Assembly: GCA_964016885.1 (NCBI GenBank) | Contig: OZ024753.1 | Location: 47,120,001 to 47,184,000, forward strand | Direction: 5' to 3' | Length of the DNA stretch: 64,000 nt | DNA from: Eledone cirrhosa | Taxonomy: Eukaryota | Part shown: in pieces, positions 1-37,317 of the stretch | How positions within the stretch are numbered: position 1 is the stretch's first letter | How the letters are laid out: every line of letters begins with the position of its first letter | Translations under genes and position numbers: made by a program | The notes under the pieces: model-generated | Database searches by the model: none | Told to the model about the DNA's origin: nothing | The model's input: only the letters and a program-made list of their open reading frames with translations

Positions 1-545
1 TATATATATATATATATATATATTAGTATATATATACACACATATATATACACACATATATATCAGTGTACATATATATATACATATATATATATATATA
101 AATGAATATTTATTCAATTTAAAGCGCCAATTATCTATATATAACAAGATATGAATTTTTCTAGGGATGGGGGAAATTTTCAGTTTGTTTTTATATTTTC
201 ACTTCATTTTTTACTTTCTATTTAATACAGTCTTTGATCCAATATAATCCTGACAGTATTTGAACCAGTTTACCTCATATATATGTATGCACACACAACA
301 CTCAAGTTTCGCCATCTACTGCTATTTCATTCATATTTATTGTTTAATTAACTCTGGTCTAATTCATCAACTATTGTTAATTATATTATTACGTAGATTT
401 CTTATAAAATCTAGTGCATATATACGTGTATATATACAGGGAGACACTGTAATAGATGTAAAGAGAGTGGGAGATAGAGTTATAGAAGTAAAGAGAGGGG
501 GAGAAATAAGCGGTAGATAGAGTAATAGATGTAAAGAGAGGGTTA

Positions 546-722
546 GAACGTTCAACTTGACAGTCAGTACAATGTTCAGCATGGTAGCCAGTACATATGC
601 CAACTACCCAACCGGCCAGCCAGCCGCATATGCGGTTGACTGGCCAGTTGGGCGGTTGGTATGTGGAACGTTCAACTACGCAGTCAGTACCAAAGTTCAA
701 CATTGTAGCCAGTGCATATGCC
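546..722. repeat. 72-nt inverted repeat (594-665) between two ~55-bp diverged direct repeats; present in every unit
   Basis: 594-627 pairs with 632-665 without bulges (27 WC, 4 G-U, 3 A-C); GAACGTTCAACT..CAGTCAGTAC..GTAGCCAGT.CATATGCC occurs at ~546-601 and ~666-722. Confidence 0.9.
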
Positions 723-768
723 GATCGCCGCGCCCTCTTTGCTCTATTTTAATGACCTGGAACTAAGT

Positions 769-881
769 AAAAAGAGTAGGAGATAACTCGACAAGAGCGG
801 AGAGGGTGAGATTCGAACCATGCAAAGTCGTTGGCTCCTGAAGTTCGTAAGCGGGGCTGCTACTGACTGAGCAGCGCCGGC
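769..881 (-). ncRNA. Candidate Pol III tRNA-like small RNA gene, unit 1 (non-cloverleaf)
   Basis: Minus strand reads GCCGGCGCTGCTCAGTCAGTAGCAGC...GGTTCGAATCTCACCCTCTCCG...TTTTT; A-box-like GCTCAGTCAGTAG in tRNA register, B box GGTTCGAATC (819-810), T5 at 773-769, TATAA 34 nt upstream. Confidence 0.6.
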
Positions 882-909
882 AGCAAGGCAAATCGCGCAT
901 AAAATAACG

Positions 910-916
910 CTTATAT
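910..916 (-). promoter_or_regulatory. TATA-like element upstream of the candidate Pol III gene; conserved in all units
   Basis: ATATAAG on minus strand about 30-35 nt upstream of the tRNA-like 5' end, preceded by a T-rich tract. Confidence 0.4.
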
Positions 917-1186
917 CGACAAAAAAAAAAAAAAAATTTCAATGTTGCACTCTTGTTTGTTGTTCTTTTATTTTACGTAAACATTTCGCTGCTCTAGCCT
1001 CTTATTTCCTATTAGATTACACTTAATTCCATTAAACATTCATTCTTAGTCTCGTGGTAAACTATTTCATCTATATTTATATCGCTGTTACAGCCTTTTA
1101 TTTCTACATCTATCACCTATAGCCACTGTTACGCCGGTAGTATAAGTAGCTTTATAACAAGAAACGATGATATAACTCCACAAAAT

Positions 1187-1235
1187 GTCTTCTTGAGCAA
1201 GACACTTCACTTCATATTGCTCCAGTACACCGAGT
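1187..1235 (+). mobile_element. CORE-SINE body fragment (all units)
   Basis: CTTGAGCAAGACACTTCACTTCATATTGCTCCAGT matches the body of the fuller SINE at 14457-14599. Confidence 0.7.
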
Positions 1236-1662
1236 TACACATAGACAGATACATACATACATACACAGATAGAAATGAGAGGTAGATAGAGTAAAAGATT
1301 TAAAGAGAGTGTGAGAAGTACGAGTTAGATAGTGTAAAAGATTTAAAGAGAGGGTGAGAGTGTGACACACATTTATCTGTCTATCTCTCTCTATTTTAAC
1401 ACCGGTCGTTATAATTAGTTTTATAACACCGCTATATTACCGACATGAAAGAGGTAAATAATTATTTCTTAAATGTTTAGAACATGTTTCTCTTGTCTTC
1501 TTAAATGTATAGAACATGTTTCTTATTTATATTCTTAACATAGCTAGGACCTTATCTCATTTACTGGTCTCTACTTTTAGGGCTTTGCTGGTCCCATGTG
1601 CCCTCCATGAAGACACACTCGCCCCTTCTCTCTCAGTCTCCGTACTAATTACTACACATACG

Positions 1663-3855
1663 TATATATATTTATTTTAAGAAACCTTAATGACAAATAA
1701 TATAAAGTGTTTGTAAAGTGGGGAAGAGTAGTTTTACGGTGGGGTTGTTATATAGATATCGTTTTTGCAGTGGGGTCGTGACTGGCGTATAATAATGAGT
1801 CACTGTTGATGTATATACAAATCATGTTTTGGATATAAGTGAAGTTATTTAAGAGATTTAGTTGTTTTGTATACATTCATAACGGTACGCGATGGGACCC
1901 ACCCACAGCCCCGGCGGACAGAATGGAGAAGGCGTTTCCCCGGAGCACGGCAAGGGAGACGCGCTGGAAAAGCCACTCCAACTCGCGGGGCTCACACCTG
2001 CGGCTGGCCAGCTCAGCGCCTATGGTGGTGAGTAAGGAGGTAGCCCTGGGGCCGAGGACACCAGAAGTCTCCACTTCCAGGGGTACGACCGCAAACCTGT
2101 CGGAGAGTGAACGATATGTGAGGAGTTTGGCCCCCTCAGCCTGACGTGCAGCAGAACCTGGGCCAGTCGCAGACTGCACCAGGTTGCGGCTGCAGAAAGT
2201 GTCGGTGCAAGTGGCATCCCAGACGAGGGGTTTGCCACCGCGGAACGGGAAGATGGTCATGCCATCTAGCCTTTTGCCGTCCCCTCGAGCTGGGAAGGGA
2301 AGCCTGCAGCGTCCAAGCCATGCTTAATGACTTCGTTGAGGGCAGCATGGCGTGGATTGCGGGTGGAGGCCGAAAGAGTCCATGGTGGAACGGCAGCGAC
2401 ATTGGTGTGAGGCCGAGCCTCAGGGAAACGCCGATGCGCAAGCTATTGTTGTCTAGCTGCGTGCGAGTGGAGAAGGAGGGCAGGGCATGGAGCCAGGCCC
2501 CACTGTGGGGTTTGGAGGCTGCACGAAAACAAACAAGGCGGTGCTGGTCGAGCTGGCGCGTGAGCCTGTCTGAGGCCAGGCTGCACTGGATGGCATCCCA
2601 AGTGTGTTGGGGGGGACTTGACGTCAACAGGGGGAGAAGGAGGAGGAACGTCTACTGGGCTAAGTCCCAGCCGGTCCCACGTCTCACAGGCGGCCACGCG
2701 TTCTCTGAACACAGAGGGTTCTGTTGTGTTTTGAAGAACCCTGCTGAGGAGGACGTGGTACGAGGTTACTGACGAAAGATATGCCGGCAAAGCTAGTGAG
2801 ATCGGGGACTGGAGGCGAAGGCCGCCATACCTGACAGGTAAAGTTGCATATCTCATCGGCTGCTGCTCGGATACAAGTTTAGGTGTAGCACAGCGTCTAT
2901 AGAGGAGCTTCGGCATGGCGTAGCAGTTCCTCAGCAGAAAGAGAACTGGGTGGGCATCAATCAAGCCCAGTCGGCTCGTGAGAGTCTGGACTTGATGGAG
3001 GAGCGGATGGCCGGCGGGTGGATCGGTGAGGGCATCCTCTTTGGGGGTCACCTGAACCTGGCGGAGAATGGACCGCACGTCCAAGACGGAGACTGCAAAG
3101 CTTGCAGCATCGAGGCTGACATTCACCACCTCCGACTTGGCTGAGTTGACCTGGAGGTCGATTCCCGCCAGGGCAGGAACCACCGATTGAAGGTCATGGC
3201 AGACCGCCTGTACGGGCCCACCCAAAGTAGCATCATCCAGATACCAAACGTTGAGAGGGGCTGTTATACTCCAGGCGATGTGGTCAATACCAAGGGTGAA
3301 CAGGAGGGGTCCCAAAGGGTTGCCCTGTTGGATCCCAGTAGCCAAGGGTATGACCGTATCAGCAGCATGGCGCATGCTTGGGGCTCCATATGACAGGTAG
3401 GCAGAGGGGGCTCGGCTGAGGCAGGCCTCGAGCAGATGATCCCAGCGTAAAGAGTTGAAGGCATTCCTCATGTCAAACTTGACAATGAGGTGGCTGGAGG
3501 CCCTGGATGCCGGTTCCGAGTGTTACGGACTTGCAGATTACCTTGGCAGCCAGCCTCCGGAAGACATTGCCCACAGCAATGGGGCGTATGCCATCCTCTT
3601 TCTTCCTGCGAGCGGTGAGGCTGGCCGAAAAAAAGAGGCCTCGAGCATAAGAGTCCAGGGCGCCATGGATGAGCCTATTGGTGAGCGCCACAATTGCACT
3701 CAGAAGGCCGCGCCCGGCCTCAGCGGAGAGGGGAGATATCAACTCCTTGAGGAGGCCTGGTCAGAGACCATCAACATCTCCGCAGCTGCTAGCTGGGAAG
3801 GACCTGATGGCGGACATGATGTCTGCATCAGAAGCCACAAGGAGCAAGTGTGGAT
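1663..3855 (-). mobile_element. Decayed 5'-truncated CRE-clade non-LTR retrotransposon (RT + restriction-like endonuclease), unit 1
   Basis: Motifs AIRSFP..DGL*P, GIRPIAVGNVFRRLAAK, NAFNS, GIQQGNPLGPLLF, WYLDD, LPVRYGGL, SGAWL, DGKR(L/P)DGMT..GKPLVWDATCTDT, FQRVSLAVLRGNA; broken by frameshifts, deletions and a stop; 3' UTR ends AATAAA-(TA)n. Confidence 0.9.
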
Positions 3856-3924
3856 TACAATACAAAACCTCTGAGAATGATTTCTAAGATATTTCACCAT
3901 AATTAATTTTCATCAATATATATT

Positions 3925-4225
3925 AATATTATTATTGTTTATTAGGTCAGGTGGATTGGCCAGAACAATTCTACTCTTCTTTTTTAGATGTCACGATTTT
4001 TCATGGCATTCCTGAGATCATTAATCTCCAGCTGGAGATCCAGAGACATCTGATGTATGTAGGTGAACCTCAGTCATCCCACTTGGCTCTTACTATGTTT
4101 AGGTATCCACCACAGGAGCCAGCTCATCAGGTCATCCTACCCTCAGCAGCAATGTCCAGCATCTATTGATTTCCGCTCCCTAGTTATTGTGGTAATCTTC
4201 GATATCTGGGAATATATTTCTTCTG
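3925..4225 (-). mobile_element. Old RTE-clade LINE 3' end (different family), all complete units
   Basis: Degenerate translation KITT..RER..AGHCC..LLWWIPKH..FTYIHQM..LRNAMKNRDI*KRRV resembles an RTE C-terminus; followed by a TAA-rich tail. Confidence 0.65.
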
Positions 4226-4786
4226 CTTAAGGGAGTAATAAATATATAGTTTTAAAAAAAACATATATATACACACACATATATATATGTTGTCATTTAT
4301 AAGAGTTCTCTATCAAAAGCCTTCTCTATGTCCAAAGCTAAGTATAGTGGCTTATTTTTCTCTAAGAACCTCTTTTGTAGTTGTCTCACTAAGAAGAGGG
4401 CATCTGTTGCACTTTTCAGCGGCTTAATTAATTAATGAGGTTTAATTAATGAGGAATTTTGAGGTATTTATAACAATTATTAATTATTTCATTACTGAGA
4501 TATCATTTGAAGGACTTACTAATGTTTTTATTTATTAATTATTTTATTAGTAACTTAACATGTGGTTCTTGTATAAAATTATGTTGGAAGATTTTAGGAA
4601 GATGCTATGTAGCCGGTCGCGGTAAAATAGACGCCCAGGCTATGTAGCCGGTAAGAGTGTCAGACTCCATGTGTTGCGGCCCTTTATGGTCTGAGTTAAG
4701 ACAATTTAAAATCTTTTCCACCATCAATTGTTAAAAAACAAGTTAAAATCATTTTGTCTTCCATTTGTAACGTACGTTACACTTTA

Positions 4787-5510
4787 GTTACATACACATA
4801 TACTATGTTACATACACACATCTACTGTGTTACATACACACACATCAACTGGGTTATATACACACACATCTACTGCGTTACATACACATCTACTGTGTTA
4901 CACACACATCTACTGTGTTACATACACACACATCTACTGAGTTACATACACATACATCTACTGTGTTACATACACACACATCTTCTGTGTTACATACACA
5001 CATCTACTGTGTTACATACACACACCTGTGTTACATACACACACATCTACTGAGTTACATACACACAGATCTACTGTGTTACATACACACACATCTACTG
5101 TGTTACACACATCTTCTATGTTACATACACACAATCTACTGTGTTACATACACACATCTACTGAGTTACATACACACACATCTACTGAGTTACATACACA
5201 CACATGTACTGTGTTACATACACACATCTACTGTGTTACATACATACACATCTACTGTGTTACATACATACACATCTACTGTTACATACACACATCTACC
5301 GTGTTACACACACACATCTACCGTGTTACACACACACATCTACCGTGTTACACACACACATCTACCGTGTTACACACACACATCTACTGAGTTACATACA
5401 CATATACTGAGTTACATGCAAACACACATCTACTCTGTTACATATACACATCTACTGTGTTACATACACATCTACTGTGATACACACACACACATCTACT
5501 CATACATATT
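4787..5510 (+). repeat. Minisatellite, ~20-24-bp unit CATCTACTGTGTTACATACA(CA)n
   Basis: About 30 visible degenerate copies. Confidence 0.95.
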
Positions 5511-6290
5511 CATAAATAGACACACATTATACAAATAATTATTACATACACACACATCTCTGTAATAATTCAGGAAGGAAGGGGCTGGTGAAACGCTATA
5601 GCAATGTGTGTGTGTTGTGTACCTTTCAGGTTTACCGGTTTCGTAGCCTATTTGAAGATTTTATTATAATTATGAACCTTATAATTCAATTAATTATGAA
5701 TAATTTTGAGCTATTTATCACAATTGTTAGTTAATTACTAACATAGTAACTTACCATATGGTTGTTATATAGAATTTTGTTGGAAGACTTTAATTTAGAT
5801 AGGAACCATTTCCATAGTACGAGAACTAATTTTGGCTGGGTTTCTACCAAAAGGGTTAATGAAGAATTTTGAACAATTTACTAAAATTATTAATTATTTC
5901 ATTACTAAGATAATGTGTGAATACACAATTATATGTGTGTATATATATATAAACAGTATATATATATATAGTATATATATATATAAACAGTATATATATA
6001 GTATACAAAAGATGTAGTGGGATAGTGTGTAGTCTTAAGACAAGTCTGTCCAGATAGCTGCGCTGTAACTTACACTTATTGGGACTGTGTGTTGGCAAGC
6101 AGGCCTGTATTTTGGGATCTAGCTGGTCCATTATGAGGGAGGTCTGGTTAGTTGGCAGCACCATGCCTTACTTGTGGTATATGTATGTATAGAAATAAGT
6201 TATTGTATATGCATAACTGTCCATCTATATGTATACATGTATGTTTACTTATATCTTTGCATACATATATACATTTTCAGATGTATACAC

Positions 6291-8214
6291 GTAATGGTCA
6301 CCCGGATAGTAAACCAAGTCATACAGAATGGGGTTGTTCTGAAGGACTGGCGTAGCAGCATCATCATTAACTGTTACAAGGGTAAAGGAGATGCCCTAGA
6401 TAGGAGTAACTATAGAGGCATTAAATTAATCGACCAGGTCATGAAGGTCACGGAAAAAGTAATAGCGCAACTAATCAGAGAGAGAATTGATCTAGATGAA
6501 ATGCAGTTCGGGTTTGTGTCAGGTAAAAGTACCACAGACGCTCTTTTCATTGTACGACAACTACAGGAGAAGTACCTAGTTAAAAGTAAACCCCTATACT
6601 TAGCTTTTGTTGACTTGGAGAAAGCCTTCGACAGAGTCCCCCGTTCCATTATCTGGTGGGCTCTTAGAAAACTAGGTGTTGAGGAATGGCTTGTGAGAGC
6701 TATACGAGCCATGTATAAAGAAACAGTCAGCAAGGTTAGAATTAACAACGAATATAGTGAAGAGTTTAGCGTAAAAGTTGGTGTTCATCAGGGCTCCGTC
6801 CTTAGCCCCCTACTATTTATTATTGCCCTTCAGGCTATAACAGTGGAGTTCAAGACCGGCTGCCCATGGGAACTCCTATACGCAGATGATCTAACGCTCA
6901 TAGCTGAATCAATGGCCGAGCTAGAGAAGAAATTCCAAACATGGAAGCAAGGCCTAGAATCAGAAGGCCTTAAAATTAACCTGGCTAAGACTAAAGTTCT
7001 AGTTTGTAGGAAAGAAAATAAGGCGCCGGTCCCTTCCGGGAAATGGCCATGCTCAGTGTGTAGGAAAGGCGTAGGTAGAAACTCCATTTTATGTCCCAAA
7101 TGCAAAGTATGGGTTCATAAAAGATGTAGTGGGATCACAGGTAAGCTAACTAAGAACATAGATTTTACATGTGGCCGGTGCTCTGGTGCAATAAGTAGCA
7201 GCAAGTGCCCACAAAATACTAGCTCTTTCAATTGCGCAGAGGGTTCTATAGAAATAGTGGACAGCTTCCGTTACCTGGGTGACAAAATCAGCAGTGGGGG
7301 AGGGTGCTCTGAAAGTACAGTAGCTAGAGTCAGAACTGGATGGAAAAAGTTCAGAGAGCTTATACCACTATTAGCCGCTAAAGGGTTCTCCCTAAAAATG
7401 AAAGGCAGGTTGTATGATGCCTGCATATGAACAGCAATGTTGCATGGCAGTGAGACCTGGGCATTGTGTGCAGAGGATATACGCAGACTAGAGAGGAACG
7501 AAGCTTGCATGCTTCGCTGGATGTGTAATAGTAATATATGTGAACGGCAAAGCATAAACGAACTAAGGGAAAAATTAGAAATAAGAGGGATCTGATGTTG
7601 TGTACTCGAGAGAAGACTACGTTGGTATGGTCCACGTGATGCGGATGAAAGACGACAGCTGTATAAAAAAAATGCAGGGCAATAAAGATAGACGGTAGCC
7701 ACGGAGTAGGCAGACCCAGAAAAACCTGGGACGACTTGATAAATTCCGACCTCACACACTTACACCTCTCCAAGACAATGTCACTGGACCGAGATCTTTG
7801 GCGGTACTCAGTAATAGAGAAGACCCGCCTTACCTAGATACAAAGTAAAACCTACTACAGTCAGTAGGCACCTCTAACAAAATACACCCCCACCCCATCC
7901 ACACCGCCCCTTTCAATGTAAAGTTATGTTGGTGCCACAACATCCAGGCCGAAACAAATGAGGTCGTGTAGGTGTCACGACAAAAAAAAAAAAACACAGT
8001 CCACGCAGTAATGTGGCCGTGTAGGTAACACGGTAAAAACCTCCCAGTCCCACACTGTAAATGCGGTTGGTGTTAGGAAGGGCATCCAGCTGTAGAAAAC
8101 CCGCCAGACAGTCCTATGCGAGCAAGACAACCACTCTTGCCTCAAGTGGGAAAATTCCCGTCCAAACCCATGCAAGCGTGGAATATGGACGTTAAACGAT
8201 GATGATGATGATGA

Positions 8215-8218
<4 letters not shown>
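6291..8218 (+). mobile_element. 5'-truncated RTE-clade LINE (RT pseudogene, 3' UTR, (GAT)n tail)
   Basis: QFGF, AFVDLEKAFDRVP, GVHQGSVLSPLLF, YADD, FRYLG, Cys-rich insert; premature TGA at 7428-7430 followed by MLHGSETW..ERRLRWYG; ends GTTAAAC(GAT)n. Confidence 0.95.
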
Positions 8219-8249
<31 letters not shown>

Positions 8250-8252
<3 letters not shown>

Positions 8253-9374
8253 CTTTGACATTTCTTAGAAAAAAAATGAAAAAGTTTTGTGAGAACCCCA
8301 ATGTTTATTTATTTTATTTTATTTTTAAATAAAATTAATAACATTAATTTTATTTTGAAATTAGGTTTATAAATATTAATTATCAGCAGACCGTTGTAGC
8401 AGTCTTGGCGGCTTAGTGGGAAGTACCAGAGATGGTGAGGTCCTTGTCTGTAGGTTCAATCCTGGTCTGGGAGTTCAATCATTGCTGTAATGTGTCCTGT
8501 TAATCTTTTTTTAAATTTTCCTCAGAAAAAACTGAAAATCTTTGGTGAGAACCCCAATGTCTATTTATCTAATATAATTTAATTTATTTTATTTTATTTT
8601 ACTTTAGTTAAATTGTCAAAACCACTGGTGATCTAAAGTTAGAGGAGACAGATAAAATAGACATATTGTCTCCTCAACCTTTAGATCTTCAGTGTTTTCG
8701 ACAATTTAACTAAAATAAAAAATTAAATTCAATATAATTAAATAAATAGGGGTTCTCTTTTTCAAAGAGATATAGAAAGAAAATTATAAAAGATTAACAT
8801 GACACCTTACATGTATCTCATGGACCAGGATTGAACCTGAGTCCCCAATTCAACCCTCAGACCAGGATTGAACACCCAGAACAGGATCTCACCATCTCTG
8901 GTACTTCCCACTAAGCTACCGAGACTGATACAAAGATGTACTGAAATTTAATATTTATAAACCTACTTTCAAAATAAAATTAAAAATAAAATATATATAT
9001 ATATATATTCCTTTGACATTTCTTAGAAAAAAGAACTGAAAAAGTTTTGTGAGAACGCCAATGTCTATTTATTTTATTTTATTTTTAATTAAATTAGTTA
9101 TATTTTGAAAGTAGGTTTATAAATATTAATTTTCAATAGACCTTTGTAGCAGTCTTGGTGGCTTAGTGGGAAGTACCAGAGATGGTGAGATCCTTGTCTG
9201 TAAGTTCAATTCTTGCTTGGAGACATGTCTAATGTGTCCTATTAATCTTTTTTTAATTTTCCTTTTACATCTCTTAGAAATAACTGAAAATCTTTGGTGA
9301 GAACCCCAATGTCTATTTATCTAATATAATTAATTTAATTTAATTTAATTTAATTTTTATTTTAGTGAAACCAC
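8250..9374. repeat. Three copies (+,-,+) of a tRNA-like/SINE-like repeat; first two form a ~640-bp foldback
   Basis: GGCTTAGTGGGAAGTACCAGAGATGGTGAG..GTTCAATCC at ~8409 (+), ~8860-8918 (-) and ~9160 (+); symmetry centre GAGGAGACA(8642-8650)/TGTCTCCTC(8667-8675). Confidence 0.85.
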
Positions 9375-9716
9375 TGTTGTATTCAAGAGACCAGGTGGAG
9401 GGGTGGGTCTGCTAGATTCATCGTGGGTAAAGAACGGTGCTATGAACTTTTCTGGGTGGGAAATGACAATGGGCTGGGTATACACATACCACCCCACCAC
9501 CCCACCGTAAAGTGGTCGTGGAGGCGCCACGGCAAAAAAGCACCCAGCCCGCTCTGTAAAGCTGACGTGGAGGTGCCACGGAAAAAAAAAAAGCACCCAG
9601 CACTCACTGCAAACTGGGTTGGCGTCAGGAAGGGCACCCAGCTGTAGAAACCAATCCAGAATCAGCTCCCACCCCACCCTTGCAAGCATGGAAAAGCGGA
9701 CGTATGATGAAGTTGA
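9375..9716 (+). mobile_element. Truncated copy of the internally deleted RTE (APE fragment + 3' tail)
   Basis: CCIQETRW-type coding remnant followed by the RTE 3' tail; 5' part removed by the cassette junction. Confidence 0.8.
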
Positions 9717-9815
9717 TATATATATATATATATTAGTATATATATACACATACATATGTACACATATACACATACATATATATATATATATACACACACA
9801 TATATATCAGTGTAC

Positions 9816-9859
<44 letters not shown>

Positions 9860-10501
9860 GAATATTTATTCAATTTAAAGCGCCAATTATCTATATATAA
9901 CAAGATATGAATTTTTCTAGGGATGGGGAAATTTTCAGTTTGTTTTTATATTTTCACTTCATTTTTTACTTTCTATTTAATACAGTCTTTGATCCAATAT
10001 AATCCTGACAGTATTTGAACCAGTTTACCTCATATATATGTATGCACACACAACACTCAAGTTTCGCCATCTACTGCTATTTCATTCATATTTATTGTTT
10101 AATTAACTCTGGTCTAATTCATCAACTATTGTTAATTATATTATTACGTAGATTTCTTATAAAATCTAGTGCATATATACGTGTATATATACAGGGAGAC
10201 ACTGTGTAATAGATGTAAAGAGAGTGGGAGATAGAGTTATAGAAGTAAAGAGAGGGAGAGAAATAAGCGGTAGATAGAGCAATAGATGTAAAGAGAGGGT
10301 TAGAACGTTCAACTTGACAGTCAGTACATATGCCAACTACCCAACCGGCCAGCCAGCCGTATTTGCGGTTGACTGGCCAGTTGGGCGGTTGGTATGTGGA
10401 ACGTTCAACTATGCAGTCAGTACCAAAGTTCAACATTGTAGCCAGTGCATATGCCGATCGCCGCGACCTCTTTGCTCTATTTAAATGACCTGGAACTAAG
10501 T

Positions 10502-10614
10502 AAAAAGAGTAGGAGATAACTCGACAAGAGCGGAGAGGGTGAGATTCGAACCATGTAAAGTCGTTGGCTCCTGAACTTCGTAAGCGGGGCTGCTACTGAC
10601 TGATCAACGCCGGC
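10502..10614 (-). ncRNA. Candidate Pol III tRNA-like RNA gene, unit 2 (B variant)
   Basis: As 769-881; 5' variant GCCGGCGTTGATCAG; B box and T5 unchanged. Confidence 0.55.
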
Positions 10615-11381
10615 AGCAAGGCAAATCGCGCATAAAATAACGCTTATATTGAGAAAATAAAACAAAAATTTCAATGTTGCACTCTTGTTTGTTGTTCTTT
10701 TATTTTACGTAAATATTTCGCTGCTCTAGCCTCTTATTTCCTATTAGATTACACTTAATTCCATTAAACATTCATTCTTAGTCTCGTGGTAAACTATTTC
10801 ATCTATATTTATATCGCTGTTACAGCCTTTTATTTCTACATCTATCACCTATAGCCACTGTTACGCCGGTAGTATAAGTAGCTTTATAACAAGAAACGAT
10901 GATATAACTCCACAAAATGTCTTCTTGAGCAAGACACTTCACCTCATATTGCTCCAGTACACCGAGTTACACATAGACAGATACATACATACACATATAT
11001 ATGTACACAGATAGAAATAAGAGGGAGATAGAGTAAAAGATGGAAAGATAGTGTAAAAGATTTAAAGAGAGGGTGAGAGTGTGACACACATTTATCTGTC
11101 TATCTCTCTCTATTTTAACACCGGTCGTTATAATTAGTTTTATAACACCGCTATATTACCGACATGAAAGAGGTAAATAATTATTTCTTAAATGTTTAGA
11201 ACATGTTTCTCTTGTCTTCTTAAATGTATAGAACATGTTTCTTATTTATATTCTTAACATAGCTAGGACCTTATCTCATTTACTGGTCTCTACTTTTAGG
11301 GCTTTGCTGGTCCCATGTGCCCTCCATGAAGACACACTCGCCCCTTCTCTCTCAGTCTCCGTACTAATTACTACACATACG

Positions 11382-13601
11382 TATATATATTTATTTTAAG
11401 AAACCTTAATGACAAATAATATAAAGTGTTTGTAAAGTGGGGAAGAGTAGTTTTACGGTGGGGTTGTTATATAGATATCGTTTTTGCAGTGGGGTCGTGA
11501 CTGGCGTATAATAATGAGTCACTGTTGATGTATATACAAATCATATTTTGGATATAAGTGAAGTTATTTAAGAGATTTAGTTGTTTTGTATACATTCATA
11601 ACGGTACGCGATGGGACCCACCCACAGCCCCGGCGGACAGAATGGAGAAGGCGTTTCCCCGGAGCACGGCAAGGGAGACGCGCTGGAAAAGCCACTCCAA
11701 CTCGCGGGGCTCACACCTGCGGCTGGCCAGCTCAGCGCCTATGGTGGTGAGTAAGGAGGTAGCCCTGGGGCCGAGGACACCAGAAGTCTCCACTTCCAGG
11801 GGTACGACCGCAAACCTGTCCCAGAGTGAACGATATGTGAGCAGTTTGGCCCTCTCAGCCTGACGTGCAGCAGAACCTGGGCCAGTCGCAGACTGCACCA
11901 GGTTGCGGCTGCAGAAAGTGTCGGTGCAAGTGGCATCCCAGACGAGGGGTTTGCCACCGCGGAACGGGAAGATGGTCATGCCATCTGGCCTTTTGCCGTC
12001 CCCTGGAGCTGGGAAGGGAAGCCTGCAGCGTCCAAGCCATGCTTAATGATTTCGTTGAGGGCAGCATGGCGTGGATTGCGGCTGGCACTGTGGCGACAGG
12101 AAAGCGGGTGGAGGCCGAAAGAGTCCATGGTGGAACGGCAGCGACATTGGTGTGAGGCCGAGCCTCAGGGAAACGCCGATGCGCAAGCTATGGTTGTCTA
12201 GCTGCGTGCGAGTGGAGAAGGAGGGCAGGGCATGGAGCCAGGCCCCACTGTGGGGTTTGGAGGCCGCACGAAAACAAACAAGGCGGTGCTGGTCGAGCTG
12301 GCACGTGAGCCTGTCTGAGGCCAGGCTGCACTGGATGGCATCCCAAGTGTGTTGGGGGGGGACTTGACGTCAACAGGGGGAGAAGGAGGAGGAACGTCTA
12401 CTGGGCTAAGTCCCAGCCGGTGCCACGTCTCACAGGCGGCCACGCGTTCTCTGAACACAGAGGGTTCTGTTGTGTTTTGAAGAAACCTGCTGAGGTGGAC
12501 GTGGTACGAGGTTACCGACGAAAGATACGCCGGCAAAGCTAGTGAGATCGGGGACTGGAGGCGAAGGTCGCCATACCTGATAGGTAAAGTTGCATATCTC
12601 ATCGGCTGCTGCTCGGATACAAGTCTGGGTGTAGCACAGAGTGTATAGAGGAGCTTCGGCATGGCGTAGCAGTTCCTCAGCAGAAAGAGAACTGGGTGGC
12701 CATCAATCAAGCCCAGTCGGCTCGTGAGAGTCTGAACTTGATGGTGGAGCGGATGGCCGGCGGGTGGATCGGTGAGGGCATCCTCTTTGGGGGTCACCTG
12801 AACCTGGCGGAGAATGGACCGCACGTCCAAGACGGAGACTGCAAAGCTTGCAGCATCGAGGCTGACATTCACCACCTCCGACTTGGCTGAGTTGACCTGG
12901 AGGTCGATTCCCGCCAGCGCAGGAACCACCGATTGAAGGTCATGGCAGACCGCCTGTACGGGCCCACCCAAAGTAGCATCATCCAGATACCAAACGTTGA
13001 GAGGGGCCGTTATACTCCGGGCGATGTGGTCAATACCAAGGGTGAACAGGAGGGGTCCCAAAGGGTTGCCCTGTTGGATCCCAGTAGCCAAGGGTATGAC
13101 CGCATCAGCAGCATGTCGCATGCTCGGGGCTCCATATGACAGCTAGGCAGAGGGGGCTCGGCTGAGGCAGGCCTCGAGCAGATGATCCCAGCGTAAAGAG
13201 TTGAAGGCATTCCTCATGTCAAACTTGACAATGAGGTGGCTGGAGTCCCTGGATGCCGGTTCCGAGTGTTACGGACTTGCAGGTTACCTTGGCAGCCAGC
13301 CTCCGGAAGACATTGCCCACAGCAATGGGGCGTATGCCACCCTCTTTCTTCCTGAGAGCGGTGAAGCTGGCTGAAAAAAAGAGGCCTCGAGCATAAGAGT
13401 CCAGGGCGCCATGGATGAGCCTATTGGTGAGCGCCACAATTGCACTCAGAAGGCGGCGCCCGGCCTCAGCGGAGAGGGGAGATATCAACTCCTTGAGGAG
13501 GCCTGGTCAGAGACCATCAACATCACCGCAGCTGCTAGCTGGGAAGGACCTGATGGCGGACATGATGTCTGCATCAGAAGCCACAAGGAGCAAGTGTGGA
13601 T
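11382..13601 (-). mobile_element. Decayed CRE-clade retrotransposon, unit 2 (B variant)
   Basis: As unit 1; retains CRC..H..C zinc knuckle and the RPDG motif. Confidence 0.9.
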
Positions 13602-14052
13602 TACAATACAAAACCTCTGAGAATAATTTCTAAGATATTTCACCATAATTAATTTTCATCAATATATATTAATATTATTATTGTTTATTAGGTCAGGTGG
13701 ATTGGCCAGAACAATTCTACTCTTCTTTTTTAGATGTCACGATTTTTCATGGCATTCCTGAGATCATTAATCTCCAGCTGGAGATCCAGAGACATCTGAT
13801 GTATGTAGGTGAACCTCAGTCATCCCACTTGGCTCTTACTATGTTTAGGTATCCACCACAGGAGCCAGCTCATCAGGTCATCCTACCCTCAGCAGCAATG
13901 TCCAGCATCTATTGATTTCCGCTCCCTAGTTATTGTGGTAATCTTCGATATCTGGGAATATATTTCTTCTGCTTAAGGGAGTAATAAATATATAGTTTTA
14001 AAAAAAACATATATATACACACACATATATATATGTTGTCATTTATAAGAGT

Positions 14053-14190
14053 TCTCTATCAAAAGCCTTCTCTATGTCCAAAGCTAAGTATAGTGGCTTA
14101 TTTTTCTCTAAGAACCTCTTTTGTAGTTGTCTCACTAAGAAGAGGGCATCTGTTGCACTTTTCAGCGGCACAAAACCAAACTGCATCTCA
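14053..14190 (-). mobile_element. RTE RT fragment (short units; truncated at 4423/31872 in long units)
   Basis: EMQFGFVPLKSATDALFLVRQLQKRFLEKNKPLYLALDIEKAFDR is homologous to the RT at 6500-6640. Confidence 0.85.
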
Positions 14191-14246
14191 TACACATACA
14201 TACATATACATACATACATACATACATATACACATACATACATACA

Positions 14247-14430
14247 TCATCATCATCATCATCATCATCATTTCGTTTTAAGTCCGCTTTTTCCCTGCTT
14301 GTAAGGGTGGGACGGGAACTGATTCTGGCTTGATTTCTACAGCTGGATGCCCTTCCTAACACCAACCTCATTTACAGTGAGTGCTGAGTGCTTTTTTGCC
14401 GTGGCACCTCCACGACCACTTTGCAGTGGA
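14247..14430 (-). mobile_element. RTE 3' tail with (GAT)n (all short units)
   Basis: Reverse complement of GGTGTTAGGAAGGGCATCCAGCTGTAGAAA..AAAAGCGGAC..AAAC(GAT)n, same tail type as 8070-8218. Confidence 0.85.
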
Positions 14431-14456
14431 ATGATATGGACCCCAGTCCCTATCAT

Positions 14457-14599
14457 CTCATTTCTACAGCTGAGTAAACTGGAGCAATGTGAAATAAAGT
14501 GTCTTGCTCAAGGAAACAACACATCACCCGGTCTGAGAATTGAACTCACAACTTTTCGATTGCCAGGCCAATGCTCGAACCACTAAGCCATGTGCCTCC
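14457..14599 (-). mobile_element. tRNA-derived CORE-type SINE, unit 2
   Basis: A box TGGCTTAGTGG, B box GAGTTCAATTC, CORE-like CCTTGAGCAAGACACTTTATTTCACATTGCTCCAG. Confidence 0.85.
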
Positions 14600-15054
14600 A
14601 TATACATATACATATACATACACATACATATACATACATATATATATACATACATACATATATACACATACATACATACACATATACCTACATATACATA
14701 CATAGATATATATATATACATAATATAAATATACATACATACACATACATAAGCATATACACATAAGTATATATACATATACATACATACATATATACAC
14801 ATACATACATATATACATACATACACACATATATACATATACACATACATACATATACATACATATACACATACATACATATATATATATACATACACAC
14901 ACATATATACATACACACACATATATACAAACACATACATATACACATATATACACATACATACACATACATATACATACATATACACATATACACTCAT
15001 ATATACATATACATACATACACACACATACATACATATATACATATACATACAT
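14600..15054 (+). repeat. Compound (CATA/CA/TA)n microsatellite (all short units)
   Basis: Directly visible. Confidence 0.97.
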
Positions 15055-15603
15055 AAAGACAAATCCACCTCATGGACGAGAATGCAAGGGCTCCTCCTCT
15101 TTGTTTCGGCCGCGGATGGCTAACCCTAACCCCATCCCCGCTCCCCACCGCTCCCAACCTCCAAACGCAATCCAAAACTTCAGAGTTGGTACCATTAATG
15201 TAGGCACCTTATAGGGTGGCTCTAACGAGGTTGTAGAAATGCTTGAACGTAACGAGGTCGATGTTTGTTGTATTCAAGAGACCAGGTGGAGGGGTGGGTC
15301 TGCTAGATTCATCGTGGGTAAAGAACGATGCTATAAGCTTTTCTGTGTGGCAAATGACAATGGGCTGGGTATACACATACCACCCCACCACCCCACCGCA
15401 AAGTGGTCGTGGAGGCGCCGCGGCAAAAAAGCACCCAGCCCACACTGTAAAGCTGACGTGGAGGTGCCACGGAAAAAAAAAAGCACCCAGCACTCACTGC
15501 AAACGGGGTTGGCGTCAGGAAGGGCACCCAGCTGTGGAAACCAATCCAGAATCAGCTCCCACCCCACCCTTGCAAGCATGGAAAAGCGGACGTATGATGA
15601 AGT

Positions 15604-15607
<4 letters not shown>
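15055..15607 (+). mobile_element. Internally deleted (5'+3' bipartite) RTE, unit 2
   Basis: [44 protein letters not shown] (APE N-terminus) joined directly to the RTE 3' UTR and tail. Confidence 0.85.
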
Positions 15608-15648
<41 letters not shown>

Positions 15649-16390
15649 TATATATATACACATATATATATACACACATATATATCAGTGTACATATATA
15701 TATACATATATATATATATATAAATGAATATTTATTCAATTTAAAGCGCCAATTATCTATATATAACAAGATATGAATTTTTCTAGGGATGGGGGAAATT
15801 TTCAGTTTGTTTTTATATTTTCACTTCATTTTTTACTTTCTATTTAATACAGTCTTTGATCCAATATAATCCTGACAGTATTTGAACCAGTTTACCTCAT
15901 ATATATGTATGCACACACAACACTCAAGTTTCGCCATCTACTGCTATTTCATTCATATTTATTGTTTAATTAACTCTGGTCTAATTCATCAACTATTGTT
16001 AATTATATTATTACGTAGATTTCTTATAAAATCTAGTGCATATATACGTGTATATATACAGGGAGACACTGTAATAGATGTAAAGAGAGTGGGAGATAGA
16101 GTTATAGAAGTAAAGAGAGGGGGAGAAATAAGCGGTAGATAGAGTAATAGATGTAAAGAGAGGGTTAGAACGTTCAACTTGACAGTCAGTACAATGTTCA
16201 GCATGGTAGCCAGTACATATGCCAACTACCCAACCGGCCAGCCAGCCGGATATGCGGTTGACTGGCCAGTTGGGCGGTTGGTATGTGGAACGTTCAACTA
16301 CGCAGTCAGTACCAAAGTTCAACATTGTAGCCAGTGCATATGCCGATCGCCGCGCCCTCTTTGCTCTATTTTAATGACCTGGAACTAAGT

Positions 16391-16503
16391 AAAAAGAGTA
16401 GGAGATAACTCGACAAGAGCGGAGAGGTTGAGATTCGAACCATGTAAAGTCGTTGGCTCCTGAAGTTCGTAAGCGGGGCTGCTACTGACTGTGCAGCGCC
16501 GGC
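16391..16503 (-). ncRNA. Candidate Pol III tRNA-like RNA gene, unit 3
   Basis: As 769-881 with private substitutions. Confidence 0.55.
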
Positions 16504-17284
16504 AGCAAGTCAAATCGCGCATAAAATATGGCTTATATCGACAAAAAAAAAAAAAAAATTTCAATGTTGCACTCTTGTTTGTTGTTCTTTTATTTTACGT
16601 AAACATTTCGCTGCTCTAGCCTCTTATTTCCTATTAGATTACACTTAATTCCATTAAACATTCATTCTTAGTCTCGTGGTAAACTATTTCATCTATATTT
16701 ATATCGCTGTTACAGCCTTTTATTTCTACATCTATCACCTATAGCCACTGTTACGCCGGTAGTATAAGTAGCTTTATAACAAGAAACGATGATATAACTC
16801 CACAAAATGTCTTCTTGAGCAAGACACTTCACTTCATATTGTTCCAGTACACCGAGTTACACATAGACAGATACATACATACATACACAGATAGAAATGA
16901 GAGGTAGATAGAGTAAAAGATTTAAAGAGAGTGTGAGAAGTACGAGTTAGATAATGTAAAAGATTTAAAGAGAGGGTGAGAGTGTGACACACATTTATCT
17001 GTCTATCTCTCTCTATTTTAACACCGGTCGTTATAATTAGTTTTATAACACCGCTATATTACCGACATGAAAGAGGTAAATAATTATTTCTTAAATGTTT
17101 AGAACATGTTTCTCTTGTCTTCTTAAATGTATAGAACATGTTTCTTATTTATATTCTTAACATAGCTAGGACCTTATCTCATTTACTGGTCTCTACTTTT
17201 AGGACTTTGCTGGTCCCATGTGCCCTCCATGAAGACACACTCGCCCCTTCTCTCTCAGTCTCCGTACTAATTACTACACATACG

Positions 17285-19478
17285 TATATATATTTATTTT
17301 AAGAAACCTTAATGACAAATAATATAAAGTGTTTGTAAAGTGGGGAAGAGTAGTTTTACGGTGGGGTTGTTATATAGATATCGTTTTTGCAGTGGGGTCG
17401 TGACTGGCGTATAATAATGAGTCACTGTTGATGTATATACAAATCATGTTTTGGATATAAGTGAAGTTATTTAAGAGATTTAGTTGTTTTGTATACATTC
17501 ATAACGGTACGCGATGGGACCCACCCACAGCCCCGGCGGACAGAATGGAGAAGGCGTTTCCCCGGAGCACGGCAAGGGAGACGCGCTGGAAAAGCCACTC
17601 CAACTCGCGGGGCTCACACCTGCGGCTGGCCAGCTCAGCGCCTATGGTGGTGAGTAAGGAGGTAGCCCTGGGGCCGAGGACACCAGAAGTCTCCACTTCC
17701 AGGGGTACGACCGCAAACCTGTCGGAGAGTGAACGATATGTGAGGAGTTTGGCCCCCTCAGCCTGACGTGCAGCAGAACCTGGGCCAGTCGCAGACTGCA
17801 CCAGGTTGCGGCTGCAGAAAGTGTCGGTGCAAGTGGCATCCCAGACGAGGGGTTTGCCACCGCGGAACGGGAAGATGGTCATGCCATCTAGCCTTTTGCC
17901 GTCCCCTCGAGCTGGGAAGGGAAGCCTGCAGCGTCCAAGCCATGCTTAATGACTTCGTTGAGGGCAGCATGGCGTGGATTGCGGGTGGAGGCCGAAAGAG
18001 TCCATGGTGGAACGGCAGCGACATTGGTGTGAGGCCGAGCCTCAGGGAAACGCCGATGCGCAAGCTATTGTTGTCTAGCTGCGTGCGAGTGGAGAAGGAG
18101 GGCAGGGCATGGAGCCAGGCCCCACTGTGGGGTTTGGAGGCTGCACGAAAACAAACAAGGCGGTGCTGGTCGAGCTGGCACGTGAGCCTGTCTGAGGCCA
18201 GGCTGCACTGGATGGCATCCCAAGTGTGTTGGGCGGGACTTGACGTCAACAGGGGGAGAAGGAGGAGGAACGTCTACTGGGCTAAGTCCCAGCCGGTGCC
18301 ACGTCTCACAGGCGGCCAGGCGTTCTCTGAACACAGAGGGTTCTGTTGTGTTTTGAAGAACCCTGCTGAAGAGGACGTGGTACGAGGTTACCGACGAAAG
18401 ATATGCCGGCAAAGCTAGTGAGATCGGGGACTGGAGGCGAAGGCCGCCATACCTGACAGGTAAAGTTGCATATCTCATCGGCTGCTGCTCGGATACAAGT
18501 TTAGGTGTAGCACAGAGTGTATAGAGGAGCTTCGGCATGGCGTAGCAGTTCCTCAGCAGAAAGAGAACTGGGTGGCCATCAATCAAGCCCAGTCGGCTCG
18601 TGAGAGTCTGGACTTGATGGAGGAGCGGATGGCCGGCGGGTGGATCGGTGAGGGCATCCTCTTTGGGGGGTCACCTGAACCTGGCGGAGAATGGACCGCA
18701 CGTCCAAGACGGAGACTGCAAAGCTTGCAGCATCGAGGCTGACATTCACCACCTCCGACTTGGCTGAGTTGACCTGGAGGTCGATTCCCGCCAGGGCAGG
18801 AACCACCGATTGAAGGTCATGGCAGACCGCCTGTACGGGCCCACCCAAAGTAGCATCATCCAGATACCAAACGTTGAGAGGGGCCGTTATACTCCAGGCG
18901 ATGTGGTCAATACCAAGGGTGAACAGGAGGGGTCCCAAAGGGTTGCCCTGTTGGATCCCAGTAGCCAAGGGTATGACCGTATCAGCAGCATGGCGCATGC
19001 TTGGGGCTCCATATGACAGGTAGGCAGAGGGGGCTCGGCTGAGGCAGGCCTCGAGCAGATGATCCCAGCGTAAAGAGTTGAAGGCATTCCTCATGTCAAA
19101 CTTGACAATGAGGTGGCTGGAGGCCCTGGATGCCGGTTCCGAGTGTTACGGACTTGCAGATTACCTTGGCAGCCAGCCTCCGGAAGACATTGCCCACAGC
19201 AATGGGGCGTATGCCATCCTCTTTCTTCCTGAGAGCGGTGAGGCTGGCCGAAAAAAAGAGGCCTCGAGCATAAGAGTCCAGGGCGCCATGGATGAGCCTA
19301 TTGGTGAGCGCCACAATTGCACTCAGAAGGCGGCGCCCGGCCTCAGCGGAGAGGGGAGATATCAACTCCTTGAGGAGGCCTGGTCAGAGACCATCAACAT
19401 CTCCGCAGCTGCTAGCTGGGAAGGACCTGATGGCGGACATGATGTCTGCATCAGAAGCCACAAGGAGCAAGTGTGGAT
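17285..19478 (-). mobile_element. Decayed CRE-clade retrotransposon, unit 3
   Basis: As unit 1 with an extra 1-nt frameshift (G6 run near 18665). Confidence 0.9.
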
Positions 19479-20333
19479 TACAATACAAAACCTCTGAGAA
19501 TGATTTCTAAGATATTTCACCATAATTAATTTTCATCAATATATATTAATATTATTATTGTTTATTAGGTCAGGTGGATTGGCCAGAACAATTCTACTCT
19601 TCTTTTTTAGATGTCACGATTTTTCATGGCATTCCTGAGATCATTAATCTCCAGCTGGAGATCCAGAGACATCTGATGTATGTAGGTGAACCTCAGTCAT
19701 CCCACTTGGCTCTTACTATGTTTAGGTATCCACCACAGGAGCCAGCTCATCAGGTCATCCTACCCTCAGCAGCAATGTCCAGCATCTATTGATTTCCGCT
19801 CCCTAGTTATTGTGGTAATCTTCGATATCTGGGAATATATTTCTTCTGCTTAAGGGAGTAATAAATATATAGTTTTAAAAAAAACATATATATACACACA
19901 CATATATATATGTTGTCATTTATAAGAGTTCTCTATCAAAAGCCTTCTCTATGTCCAAAGCTAAGTATAGTGGCTTATTTTTCTCTAAGAACCTCTTTTG
20001 TAGTTGTCTCACTAAGAAGAGGGCATCTGTTGCACTTTTCAGCGGCACAAAACCAAACTGCATCTCATACACATACATACATATACATACATACATACAT
20101 ACATATACACATACATACATACATCATCATCATCATCATCATCATCATTTCGTTTTAAGTCCGCTTTTTCCCTGCTTGTAAGGGTGGGACGGGAACTGAT
20201 TCTGGCTTGATTTCTACAGCTGGATGCCCTTCCTAACACCAACCTCATTTACAGTGAGTGCTGAGTGCTTTTTTGCCGTGGCACCTCCACGACCACTTTG
20301 CAGTGGAATGATATGGACCCCAGTCCCTATCAT

Positions 20334-20476
20334 CTCATTTCTACAGCTGAGTAAACTGGAGCAATGTGAAATAAAGTGTCTTGCTCAAGGAAACAACACA
20401 TCACCCGGTCTGAGAATTGAACTCACAACTTTTCGATTGCCAGGCCAATGCTCGAACCACTAAGCCATGTGCCTCC
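20334..20476 (-). mobile_element. CORE-type SINE, unit 3
   Basis: As 14457-14599. Confidence 0.85.
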
Positions 20477-20967
20477 ATATACATATACATATACATATAC
20501 ATACACATACATATACATACATATATATATACATACATACATATATACACATACATACATACACATACATACACATATACATACATATACATACATAGAT
20601 ATATATATATACATAATATAAATATACATACATACACATACATAAGCATATACACATAAGTATATATACATATACACACGTATATATACATATACATACA
20701 TACATATATACACATACATACATATATACATACATACACACATATATACATATACACATACATACATATACATACATATACACATACATACATATATATA
20801 TATACATACACACACATATATACATACACACACATATATACAAACACATACATATACACATATATACACATACATACACATACATATACATACATATACA
20901 CATATACACTCATATATACATATACATACATACACACACATACATACATATATACATATACATACAT

Positions 20968-21516: not shown

Positions 21517-21520
<4 letters not shown>
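20968..21520 (+). mobile_element. Internally deleted RTE, unit 3
   Basis: As 15055-15607. Confidence 0.85.
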
Positions 21521-21559
<39 letters not shown>

Positions 21560-22301: not shown

Positions 22302-22414
22302 AAAAAGAGTAGGAGATAACTCGACAAGAGCGGAGAGGGTGAGATTCGAACCATGTAAAGTCGTTGGCTCCTGAAGTTCGTAAGCGGGGCTGTTACTGAC
22401 TGAGCAGCGCCGGC
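22302..22414 (-). ncRNA. Candidate Pol III tRNA-like RNA gene, unit 4
   Basis: As 769-881. Confidence 0.55.

Positions 22415-27435: not shown

Positions 27436-27474
<39 letters not shown>

Positions 27475-37282: not shown

Positions 37283-37317
<35 letters not shown>

What the first reader, a model, noticed from the sequence alone, without database searches (positions are those of the whole stretch)
769..916. Tandemly arrayed, unclassified Pol III-type small RNA gene: possible reason for the array
Seen: once per unit on the minus strand there is a T-rich tract, TATAAG, then about 30 nt later GCCGGCGCTGCTCAGTCAGTAGCAGCCCCGCTTACGAACTTCAGGAGCCAACGACTTTACATGGTTCGAATCTCACCCTCTCCGCTCTTGTCGAGTTATCTCCTACTCTTTTT (~113 nt). 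Positions 10-22 are in exact tRNA D-arm register (GCTCAGTC.GTAG) but lack U8 and G18. Acceptor, anticodon and T stems do not pair. It can form other stems instead: GCTGCT/AGCAGC and GAGCCA/TGGTTC. TATA, B box and T5 are identical in all 10 copies. Known: A/B boxes plus upstream TATA and an oligo-T terminator describe Pol III genes such as vault RNAs and SINE source genes, and kb-scale tandem arrays are typical of 5S, snRNA, SL and tRNA genes. Inference: with the adjacent hairpin, this is the only part of the unit that looks functional rather than transposon debris, so the macrosatellite may be a gene array for a lineage-specific ncRNA. It has no SINE body or tail.
Basis: partly seen in the sequence, partly recalled or inferred. 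Interest (0 to 1): 0.75.

Follow-up and report, generated by a model that had tools for sequence, protein, structure and literature searches.

The report
tRNA-derived small RNA gene near telomeres
This is one copy of a family of short genes, likely descended from a serine transfer-RNA gene and likely once transcribed, that sits in hundreds of repeats near the chromosome ends of what is probably an octopus; the repeats most likely carry a decaying copy along rather than existing for it.

Summary
The element is real: TATA, B box and T5 are in 10 of 10 window copies, and 0 of 500 shuffles give the arrangement. It is no Rfam family and no SINE head. It is one unit of an older genome-wide cassette family with 1-4 diverged A/B-box units about 160 nt apart; the older units resemble the genome's tRNA-Ser(GCT). 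Six solo copies with unrelated flanks end at or near the T run, five start at the A box, and three are fused to SINE sequence. They look like retrocopies, so the family was likely transcribed in the germ line. Two non-promoter motifs evolve slowly; covariation is not significant. The window's version has about 330 copies in a subtelomeric duplication shared by several chromosome ends. It changed as fast as its flanks, has a decayed A box and a weakened 5' hairpin, and gave no retrocopy. A gene-less array next door is amplified likewise. The gene is therefore probably a passenger, not the reason for the array. Closest analogues: primate snaR and rodent 4.5SH/4.5SI genes. Expression and conservation in other species remain untested. 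The scan had not noted this sequence before.

The parts
769..881 (-). Predicted Pol III transcription unit, 113 nt, tRNA-derived (type-B member of the family)
   Evidence: a family model that contained no array copy scores all 10 window copies at E 4e-13 to 2e-11
910..915 (-). TATA-like box about 30 nt upstream of the predicted start
   Evidence: 10 of 10 copies; a TATA-like motif at the same place in lineages A, C and E
863..874 (-). A box, decayed: C at position 8 in 8 of 10 window copies; the other 2 have T8 but A11
810..819 (-). B box
   Evidence: 10 of 10 copies
844..852 (-). Slow-evolving non-promoter motif (family form GCTTACTAA); 3' strand of the family's 5' hairpin, at the place of the tRNA anticodon loop
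782..789 (-). Slow-evolving 3' motif GAGTTATC (small hairpin in gene-1 units)
769..773 (-). T5 terminator
   Evidence: 10 of 10 copies; solo copies end here
917..1159 (-). AT-rich upstream block shared by all five cassette lineages (64-77% identity)
548..722 (.). Direct repeat plus 60-nt palindrome (600-659), specific to the array lineage and not part of the gene
   Evidence: absent downstream of the older type-B copies L098-L100
1399..1621 (-). Remnant of the end of a Helitron RepHel(-PHD) reading frame and its 3' region, 82% identical to type-A loci
1880..3850 (-). Dead, 5'-truncated non-LTR retrotransposon (RT plus restriction-like end; the CRE-clade label is recalled, not tested)
   Evidence: RVT_1, E 2e-10
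1..64000 (.). Subtelomeric macrosatellite of 5.92-kb and 9.74-kb units; 10 gene copies, with the query's 5' end at 916, 10649, 16538, 22449, 28364, 38110, 44272, 50197, 56121 and 62042

Best explanation
The element is one unit of a multi-lineage cassette family of short genes, likely derived from tRNA-Ser and likely once transcribed by RNA polymerase III, and the window's copy is probably a decaying passenger of a subtelomeric duplication. Steps: (1) Shown: the family exists as cassettes of 1-4 diverged units with a period of about 160 nt behind a shared upstream block, in at least five lineages with different outer flanks. (2) Inferred: a type II tRNA gene, best match tRNA-Ser(GCT), lost its cloverleaf, kept its A/B boxes and duplicated in tandem. 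(3) Inferred from established Pol III biology: TFIIIC binds the boxes, TFIIIB loads at the TATA box, and Pol III makes a 110-125-nt RNA ending in U4-5. In older members this RNA is predicted to fold into one long 5' hairpin; if it has a job, the likeliest is a protein-binding decoy RNA, as for snaR. (4) Inferred: the RNA was present in germ cells, where LINE machinery copied it by template switching and left solo and SINE-fused copies. (5) Shown: one single-gene derivative lies in a unit of transposon debris inside a subtelomeric block shared by several chromosome ends. Inferred: unequal and ectopic exchange amplified it to about 330 copies without selection on the gene.
For: Family and cassette structure. 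Parent: the middle unit at C19 aligns to tRNA-Ser(GCT) at z 8.1 against z of 1.0 or less for three other tRNAs, and the A-to-B spacing matches. Transcription: 6 solo copies with unrelated flanks; 5 begin 0-3 nt 5' of A-box position 8 and 1 is 5'-truncated; 5 end at or just before the T run and 1 about 40 nt beyond; 3 are followed directly by SINE or SINE-tail sequence. This matches the U6-LINE/SINE chimeras of PMC4476161 (passages). Constraint in older members: two non-promoter motifs have relative rates 0.54 and 0.51 against 1.18 for other columns (best-window shuffle P about 0.014), and the 5' hairpin has z -4.0, -3.9 and -2.9 in E1a, E1b and D1. Passenger status: gene pi 0.020 against 0.019 for the dead retrotransposon. 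Older type B against the array: 12-14 of 103 gene sites differ, against 36/336, 12/125, 18/111 and 3-5/49 in flanks. Hairpin z is -0.6 in the array form. No array-type solo copy was found. Telomere tracts lie about 80-100 kb away and flanks are shared at 97-99.8% between chromosome ends. The distal 3.65-kb array has no B box or family hit yet is 98% identical across three ends.
Against: Covariation is not significant (2 pairs with a change on both sides; 76 of 500 shuffles reach this), so a conserved structure is not proven. No clean target-site duplication flanks any solo copy: two have offset 8-nt matches and the rest are uninformative. Only 4 tRNAs were compared, and the window copy itself scores best with a different one (z 5.5 for the 'Ala' gene against 3.4 for Ser). 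Between lineages the A-to-B region is only 1-11 points more identical than the upstream block (8 of 8 pairs, not independent). Array copies are too young (about 2% diversity) to show weak selection. TATA, B box and T5 are intact, so the array could still be transcribed. Several separately amplified duplicons share only this core, which fits a driver as well as a passenger.
Confidence: 0.57

Rival explanations
1. The array is a selected gene array that supplies a high dose of a functional small RNA, as the 4-5-kb tandem repeats do for rodent 4.5SH RNA.
For: One gene per unit, with intact TATA, B box and T5 in 10 of 10 copies. The family shows signs of past transcription and slow motifs. The cassette core recurs in independently amplified segments: type A duplicons, type D duplicons and a 4.4-kb type E tandem. 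4.5SH and snaR are precedents.
Against: No lower diversity or divergence than flanks. A box and hairpin decayed on the branch to the array. No array-type solo copy. A gene-less neighbouring array is amplified likewise. The loci were found by searching with the gene, so their sharing it is partly ascertainment.
Confidence: 0.17
2. The cassette works at the DNA level. TFIIIC or Pol III bound at the B boxes would form a chromatin boundary about 80-100 kb inside the telomere, or would pause replication forks and make the segment recombinogenic, so that it acts as a core duplicon.
For: The B box is invariant in the window while the A box decays. In the listed terminal arrays the gene points away from the telomere (C8 and C9 starts on +; C5, C6, C10 and C13 ends on -). 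Repeated amplification and many deletions occur around the core. The tDNA boundary and fork-pausing roles are recalled, not from a call.
Against: The shared orientation follows from the shared block. Type D downstream units carry a changed B box, and many type-A duplicons lost the cassette yet were amplified.
Confidence: 0.13
3. The cassette is the internal ~160-nt repeat of a non-autonomous rolling-circle element (HINE/pearl-like), or cargo of a Helitron, and the array is a rolling-circle product.
For: Type A and B cassettes lie about 700-800 nt behind a Helitron RepHel end on the same strand, and 12 of 12 fetched helicase hits continue into the same downstream sequence. The unit period of about 160 nt, the 1-4 units, a flanking 106-nt inverted repeat and a minisatellite resemble pearl/HINE architecture (PMC7492417 passages).
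Against: Types C, D and E show no match to this Helitron within the 5-15 kb held on each side. No Helitron terminus or clean insertion site was found. Copies share kilobases of unrelated transposon debris, which marks duplicons rather than insertions. Units within a cassette are diverged, not homogenised.
Confidence: 0.09
4. It is a plain tRNA pseudogene or SINE-head fragment that never had a life as a gene of its own.
For: No significant covariation and many degenerate copies.
Against: Its own TATA, terminator and 3' motif are kept across five lineages. Solo copies are cut to transcript size. No SINE body follows the source copies, and copy numbers are low.
Confidence: 0.04

Closest known systems
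Rodent 4.5SH RNA genes (PMC10137851, passages read)
   Same: A and B boxes plus a TATA-like box near -30; hundreds of copies, each in a 4-5-kb tandem unit; lineage-restricted.
   Different: 4.5SH derives from 7SL/B1 and has proven expression and a function. This one is tRNA-derived, its array is subtelomeric, expression is untested and the arrayed copy looks neutral.
Rodent 4.5SI RNA genes (PMC10137851, passages read)
   Same: tRNA-derived short Pol III RNA with a TATA-like box.
   Different: Three genes 4-40 kb apart, related to the B2 SINE. Here 1-4 units lie about 160 nt apart in a cassette, and no related high-copy SINE was found.
Primate snaR genes (PMC3045588, passages read)
   Same: Short Pol III genes spread by segmental duplication into tandem arrays, embedded in a core sequence; relatives spread by retrotransposition.
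   Different: Alu-derived, about 30 genes, shown to be expressed and to bind NF90; no sequence relation was tested or is expected.
U6-LINE and U6-SINE chimeric pseudogenes (PMC4476161, passages read)
   Same: A Pol III RNA copy followed directly by full or 5'-truncated retroposon sequence, also with RTE and L2 clades, sometimes without a clear target-site duplication.
   Different: This describes the solo copies elsewhere in the genome, not the window copy.
tRNA-Ser(GCT) of this genome (L162)
   Same: A-to-B spacing, D-region and T-region sequence, most clearly in the older units.
   Different: No cloverleaf, a changed anticodon region, and a 25-40-nt 3' extension with its own motif.
Pearl / Cg_HINE non-autonomous Helentrons of bivalves (PMC7492417, passages read)
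   Same: A few ~160-bp internal repeats; inverted repeats and simple repeats nearby.
   Different: No termini or independent insertion sites were found here, and the units are diverged paralogues with promoters.

Membership tests
Type 2 Pol III gene | B box inside the transcribed region | tested here: met
   10 of 10 window copies
Type 2 Pol III gene | A box 30-60 nt upstream of the B box | tested here: inconclusive
   Present but off-consensus in all 10 window copies; closer to the recalled consensus in types A, D and E and in solo copies
Type 2 Pol III gene | T4 or longer terminator | tested here: met
   T5 in 10 of 10; solo copies end there
Type 2 Pol III gene | Pol III occupancy and a discrete transcript | not testable with these tools
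   Only indirect evidence, from solo copies of other lineages
tRNA | Cloverleaf with paired acceptor, anticodon and T stems | tested here: not met
   ARAGORN 0 genes and Rfam tRNA no hit on the element
Vault RNA | Match to the Rfam Vault model | tested here: not met
   No hit at E up to 10
Vault RNA | Terminal stem pairing the 5' and 3' ends (recalled feature) | tested here: not met
   Absent from the consensus folds
SINE | Body and LINE-derived or A-rich tail behind the tRNA head | tested here: not met
   Cassette copies end in T5 followed by spacer; 3 solo copies are one-off fusions
SINE | High number of dispersed copies with target-site duplications | tested here: not met
   332, 36 and 32 pattern matches, mostly in arrays or duplicons; 6 solo copies, no clean duplication
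TRIMp3 (Helenus) | tRNA-like sequence inside two LTRs bounding each monomer | tested here: not met
   Single-unit loci carry one gene and are bounded by microsatellite or transposon debris (paper passages)
Non-autonomous Helitron/Helentron | Common 5' and 3' termini with a 3' hairpin, and unique flanks per copy | tested here: inconclusive
   None found in the copies inspected; flanks shared over kilobases
Subtelomeric segmental duplication | Block near telomere tracts, shared at over 90% identity between chromosome ends | tested here: met
   Telomere tracts at 4 of 6 contig ends inspected; flanks 97-99.8% identical
4.5SH/snaR-like selected gene array | Gene more conserved than the rest of the unit | tested here: not met
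   power is low within the young array

The most novel reading that the evidence does not exclude
An octopod-specific, functional small-RNA system: tandem cassettes of 2-4 diverged tRNA-Ser-derived Pol III genes (like viral VA/EBER pairs, a recalled analogy) that make hairpin decoy RNAs in the germ line. The cassette would be a core duplicon amplified several times independently, most recently into about 330 subtelomeric copies kept for RNA dose or as a TFIIIC boundary at chromosome ends.
Probability: 0.2. Interest if true: 0.8.

Novelty: new member of a known kind. Interest (0 to 1): 0.5.

Why it matters
The best-known lineage-specific Pol III RNAs of this kind are mammalian (4.5SH, 4.5SI, snaR). 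A tRNA-Ser-derived family in a cephalopod, with retrocopies as a fossil record of germ-line expression, would extend the class to molluscs and give defined targets for a northern blot. It also describes a subtelomere layout: telomere, 3.65-kb array, spacer, 5.9-kb array. Even as a passenger, it shows how a small Pol III gene reaches hundreds of copies without visible selection, which cautions against reading an array as proof of function.

Tried and rejected
Rfam and ARAGORN found no family on the window, one unit, the element and a type-A cassette. Sequencing runs: no RNA holder listed; this says nothing about expression. Four runs were laid. A run with one organism label holds 130-1931 in one contig with 6 differences spread over gene and flanks. 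A run with another label holds the whole unit at high depth, plus a depth-7 contig diverged over 753-985. Two further runs give single depth-2 contigs, which are no evidence of conservation because the runs were picked through this stretch. The Helitron-cargo reading was first favoured and lowered when types C, D and E lacked the Helitron. tRNA-Tyr, Thr and Sec parents were considered; Tyr and Thr scored lower than Ser for 5 of 7 units tested, and Sec was judged by eye only. The first chance test used a pattern that the real copies did not match and was redone. Covariation test negative. Search for array-type solo copies negative; it needs an exact 18-mer and by my estimate would catch about 70% of such copies. 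A genome-wide model search could not be run, so more distant founders may be missed. Nothing describing this family was seen in the listings of paper searches; subscription papers, Repbase/Dfam and supplements were not seen and could hold it as an unnamed repeat. Earlier scan notes: none by sequence.

Full report
Observation. The element is at 916-769 on the minus strand as described. The window holds ten copies in a 5.92-kb unit with a 9.74-kb variant. TATAAG, the B box and T5 are identical in 10 of 10. The arrangement occurs in 0 of 500 shuffles of the unit (an earlier pattern that missed the real copies was discarded). ARAGORN and Rfam find nothing. The 113 nt fold no better than shuffles (z -0.7 and -1.2).

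Where the array lies. The window is at 47.12-47.18 Mb of a 47.29-Mb contig in a 3.0-Gb genome. An octopus is likely, but this rests on recalled SINE and genome features and on unchecked scan notes. A 29-mer of the gene has 233 exact matches and a B-box 23-mer has 332 matches with up to 2 mismatches; controls had 0 (only the first 100 places of each were listed). Arrays lie near the ends of C6, C8, C9, C10 and C13 and inside C11, with one or two units on C1-C5 and C7. TTAGGG tracts were found at 4 of 6 ends inspected (C5, C6, C9, C13), about 80-100 kb from the array. Distal and proximal flanks are shared between ends at 97-99.8%. A second array of about 3.65 kb lies between the gene array and the contig end on C6, C8 and C13. 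It is 98% identical between ends and has no B box, tRNA or family hit; Rfam was run on one of the three loci. The array is therefore part of a subtelomeric segmental duplication in which another array grew without this gene.

The family. A gapped A/B-box pattern found a diverged copy on C3 whose homology covers only the A box to the T run. Searches from it and from later finds revealed cassettes of units about 160 nt apart behind a shared AT-rich upstream block. Type A has two units and lies about 770 nt behind a Helitron helicase remnant (Pif1_2B, E 1e-14). Type B, in the window, has one unit and keeps the last codons of that Helitron frame. Type C has three units inside a 106-nt inverted repeat. 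Type D has two to four units in dispersed duplicons. Type E has two units, three times in a 4.4-kb tandem plus two other loci. Types C, D and E show no match to the Helitron. Exact patterns count 36 type-A-like first units and 32 second units. These are lower bounds, and I fetched only part of the hits (26 of 40; about 30 loci from the 48 matches). A sequence-only model from 13 units, none from the array, scores all ten window copies at E of 2e-11 or better and none of the real tRNAs in the four tRNA loci given to it.

Origin. The middle unit of type C aligns to the genome's tRNA-Ser(GCT) at z 8.1, against 1.0 or less for the Tyr, Thr and 'Ala' genes. Five of seven units tested score best with Ser, and the A-to-B spacing matches this type II tRNA. 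The window copy and the type-A first unit score better with other tRNAs because their A box has drifted. Only four tRNAs were compared.

Evidence of transcription. Six copies have flanks unrelated to any cassette: L051/L059, L069, L070, L080/L121, L124 and L125. Five begin 0-3 nt before A-box position 8 and one is 5'-truncated. Five stop at or just before the T run and one about 40 nt past a mutated terminator. Two are followed by a complete SINE and one by a SINE/LINE 3' tail (family names recalled). This is the structure of U6-LINE/SINE chimeras made by template switching, which also occur with RTE and L2 elements (PMC4476161, passages). No clean target-site duplication was found. All six are of older types; a pattern for array-type solo copies gave 0.

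Evidence of constraint. Of 72 distinct motif hits (one a false hit, many near-identical array copies), I aligned 19 first units, 9 later units and 21 for a tree. Both consensus folds give a short 5' helix closing a 6-nt loop. For the extended hairpin, 85% of cells pair, but covariation is not above shuffles (76 of 500). Relative rates are A box 0.92, B box 0.72, the helix motif 0.54, the 3' motif 0.51 and other columns 1.18; the best-window shuffle gives P of about 0.014 (rough). The 5' domain is strongly structured in E1 and D1 (z -4.0, -3.9, -2.9), moderately in A (-0.4 to -1.8) and weakly in array forms (-0.6, -1.2). Between lineages the A-to-B region is 67-82% identical against 64-77% for the upstream block. 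The signal is modest: the family may have had an RNA-level function, but this is not shown.

The array copy looks neutral. Across 26 copies from many contigs the gene has pi 0.020, the dead retrotransposon 0.019, and 53% of 113-nt windows vary less than the gene. Against three older type-B copies, 12-14 of 103 gene sites differ, against 6-16% in flanks. T8 was lost in the amplified form: 8 of 10 window copies have C8 and the other two have a change at position 11. Related duplicons were amplified with the first unit's A box deleted, with the cassette missing behind the helicase, or, in type D, with the TATA-to-A-box spacer deleted and B boxes changed. The palindrome beside the gene is specific to the array lineage. 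Its five mismatches show no strand preference (3 G-U pairs on one strand, 2 on the other), and it is cut by deletions in some copies.

Mechanism. Shown: anatomy, family, location and neutral-looking divergence of the array form. Inferred: tRNA-Ser origin, Pol III transcription of older members, retrocopying by LINE machinery, and amplification by subtelomeric exchange. A selected gene array (0.17), a DNA-level boundary or recombination role (0.13), a rolling-circle element (0.09) and a mere pseudogene (0.04) remain as rivals. The strongest point for the first two is that several separately amplified segments share only this core, though they were found through it.

Comparison and novelty. It works most like the snaR and 4.5SH/4.5SI genes (PMC3045588 and PMC10137851, passages) but is not a member of these mammalian families. 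It fails the tests for tRNA, vault RNA, SINE and Helenus (PMC10886601, passages). Passages of PMC7492417, PMC4758252 and PMC3747384 were also read; none described it. No description was seen in the listings of searches; repeat libraries and supplements were not seen. Verdict: a new member of a known kind, interest 0.5. Expression and cross-species conservation are the open tests.

Noticed in passing
G000:C1:49.30-49.40 Mb (L054): Tandem array of intron-containing tRNA genes (they read as Tyr; ARAGORN's bacterial mode calls them Leu), two per unit of about 4.98 kb, over 30 copies.
   Followed up: no
G000:C4:316.09-316.13 Mb (L163, L164): Dense cluster of tRNA-Ser genes with several anticodons; six tRNA calls in 3 kb.
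   Followed up: no
L094, L101, L061:330-1150: The Helitron RepHel remnant appears to continue through a proline-rich linker into a C-terminal PHD-like finger (PF00628, E 0.02, below cut-off).
   Followed up: partly
L032, L038, L043 (C8, C13, C6): Second subtelomeric tandem array of about 3.3-3.65 kb made of transposon debris, between the contig end and the gene array, 98% identical across ends.
   Followed up: partly
window 4424-9374 and about 31873-36841: The long unit variant carries a minisatellite, an RT-bearing LINE piece and a nested inverted-repeat structure (8233-9356), repeating as a higher-order pattern.
   Followed up: no
window 548-722: Two 55-nt direct repeats around a 60-nt palindrome whose five mismatches are all transitions; 24-nt deletion in 2 of 10 copies.
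   Followed up: partly
L183, L186 (type D cassettes): A SINE inserted at the TATA box with a duplication of about 20 nt that restores the TATA box behind it.
   Followed up: no
L150, L178, L185 (type D) and L117 (type C): The cassette is flanked by an inverted copy of its upstream block, and in type D also by an inverted MITE-like piece.
   Followed up: partly
L110-L115 (C25:26.8-28.8 Mb): Helitron-end duplicons in which a minisatellite and a retrotransposon end stand where the cassette would be.
   Followed up: partly
run X3 laid on window 753-985: A depth-7 contig with 26 substitutions covering the gene and upstream region only; probably a type-A or older type-B locus, not matched to a genome place.
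   Followed up: no
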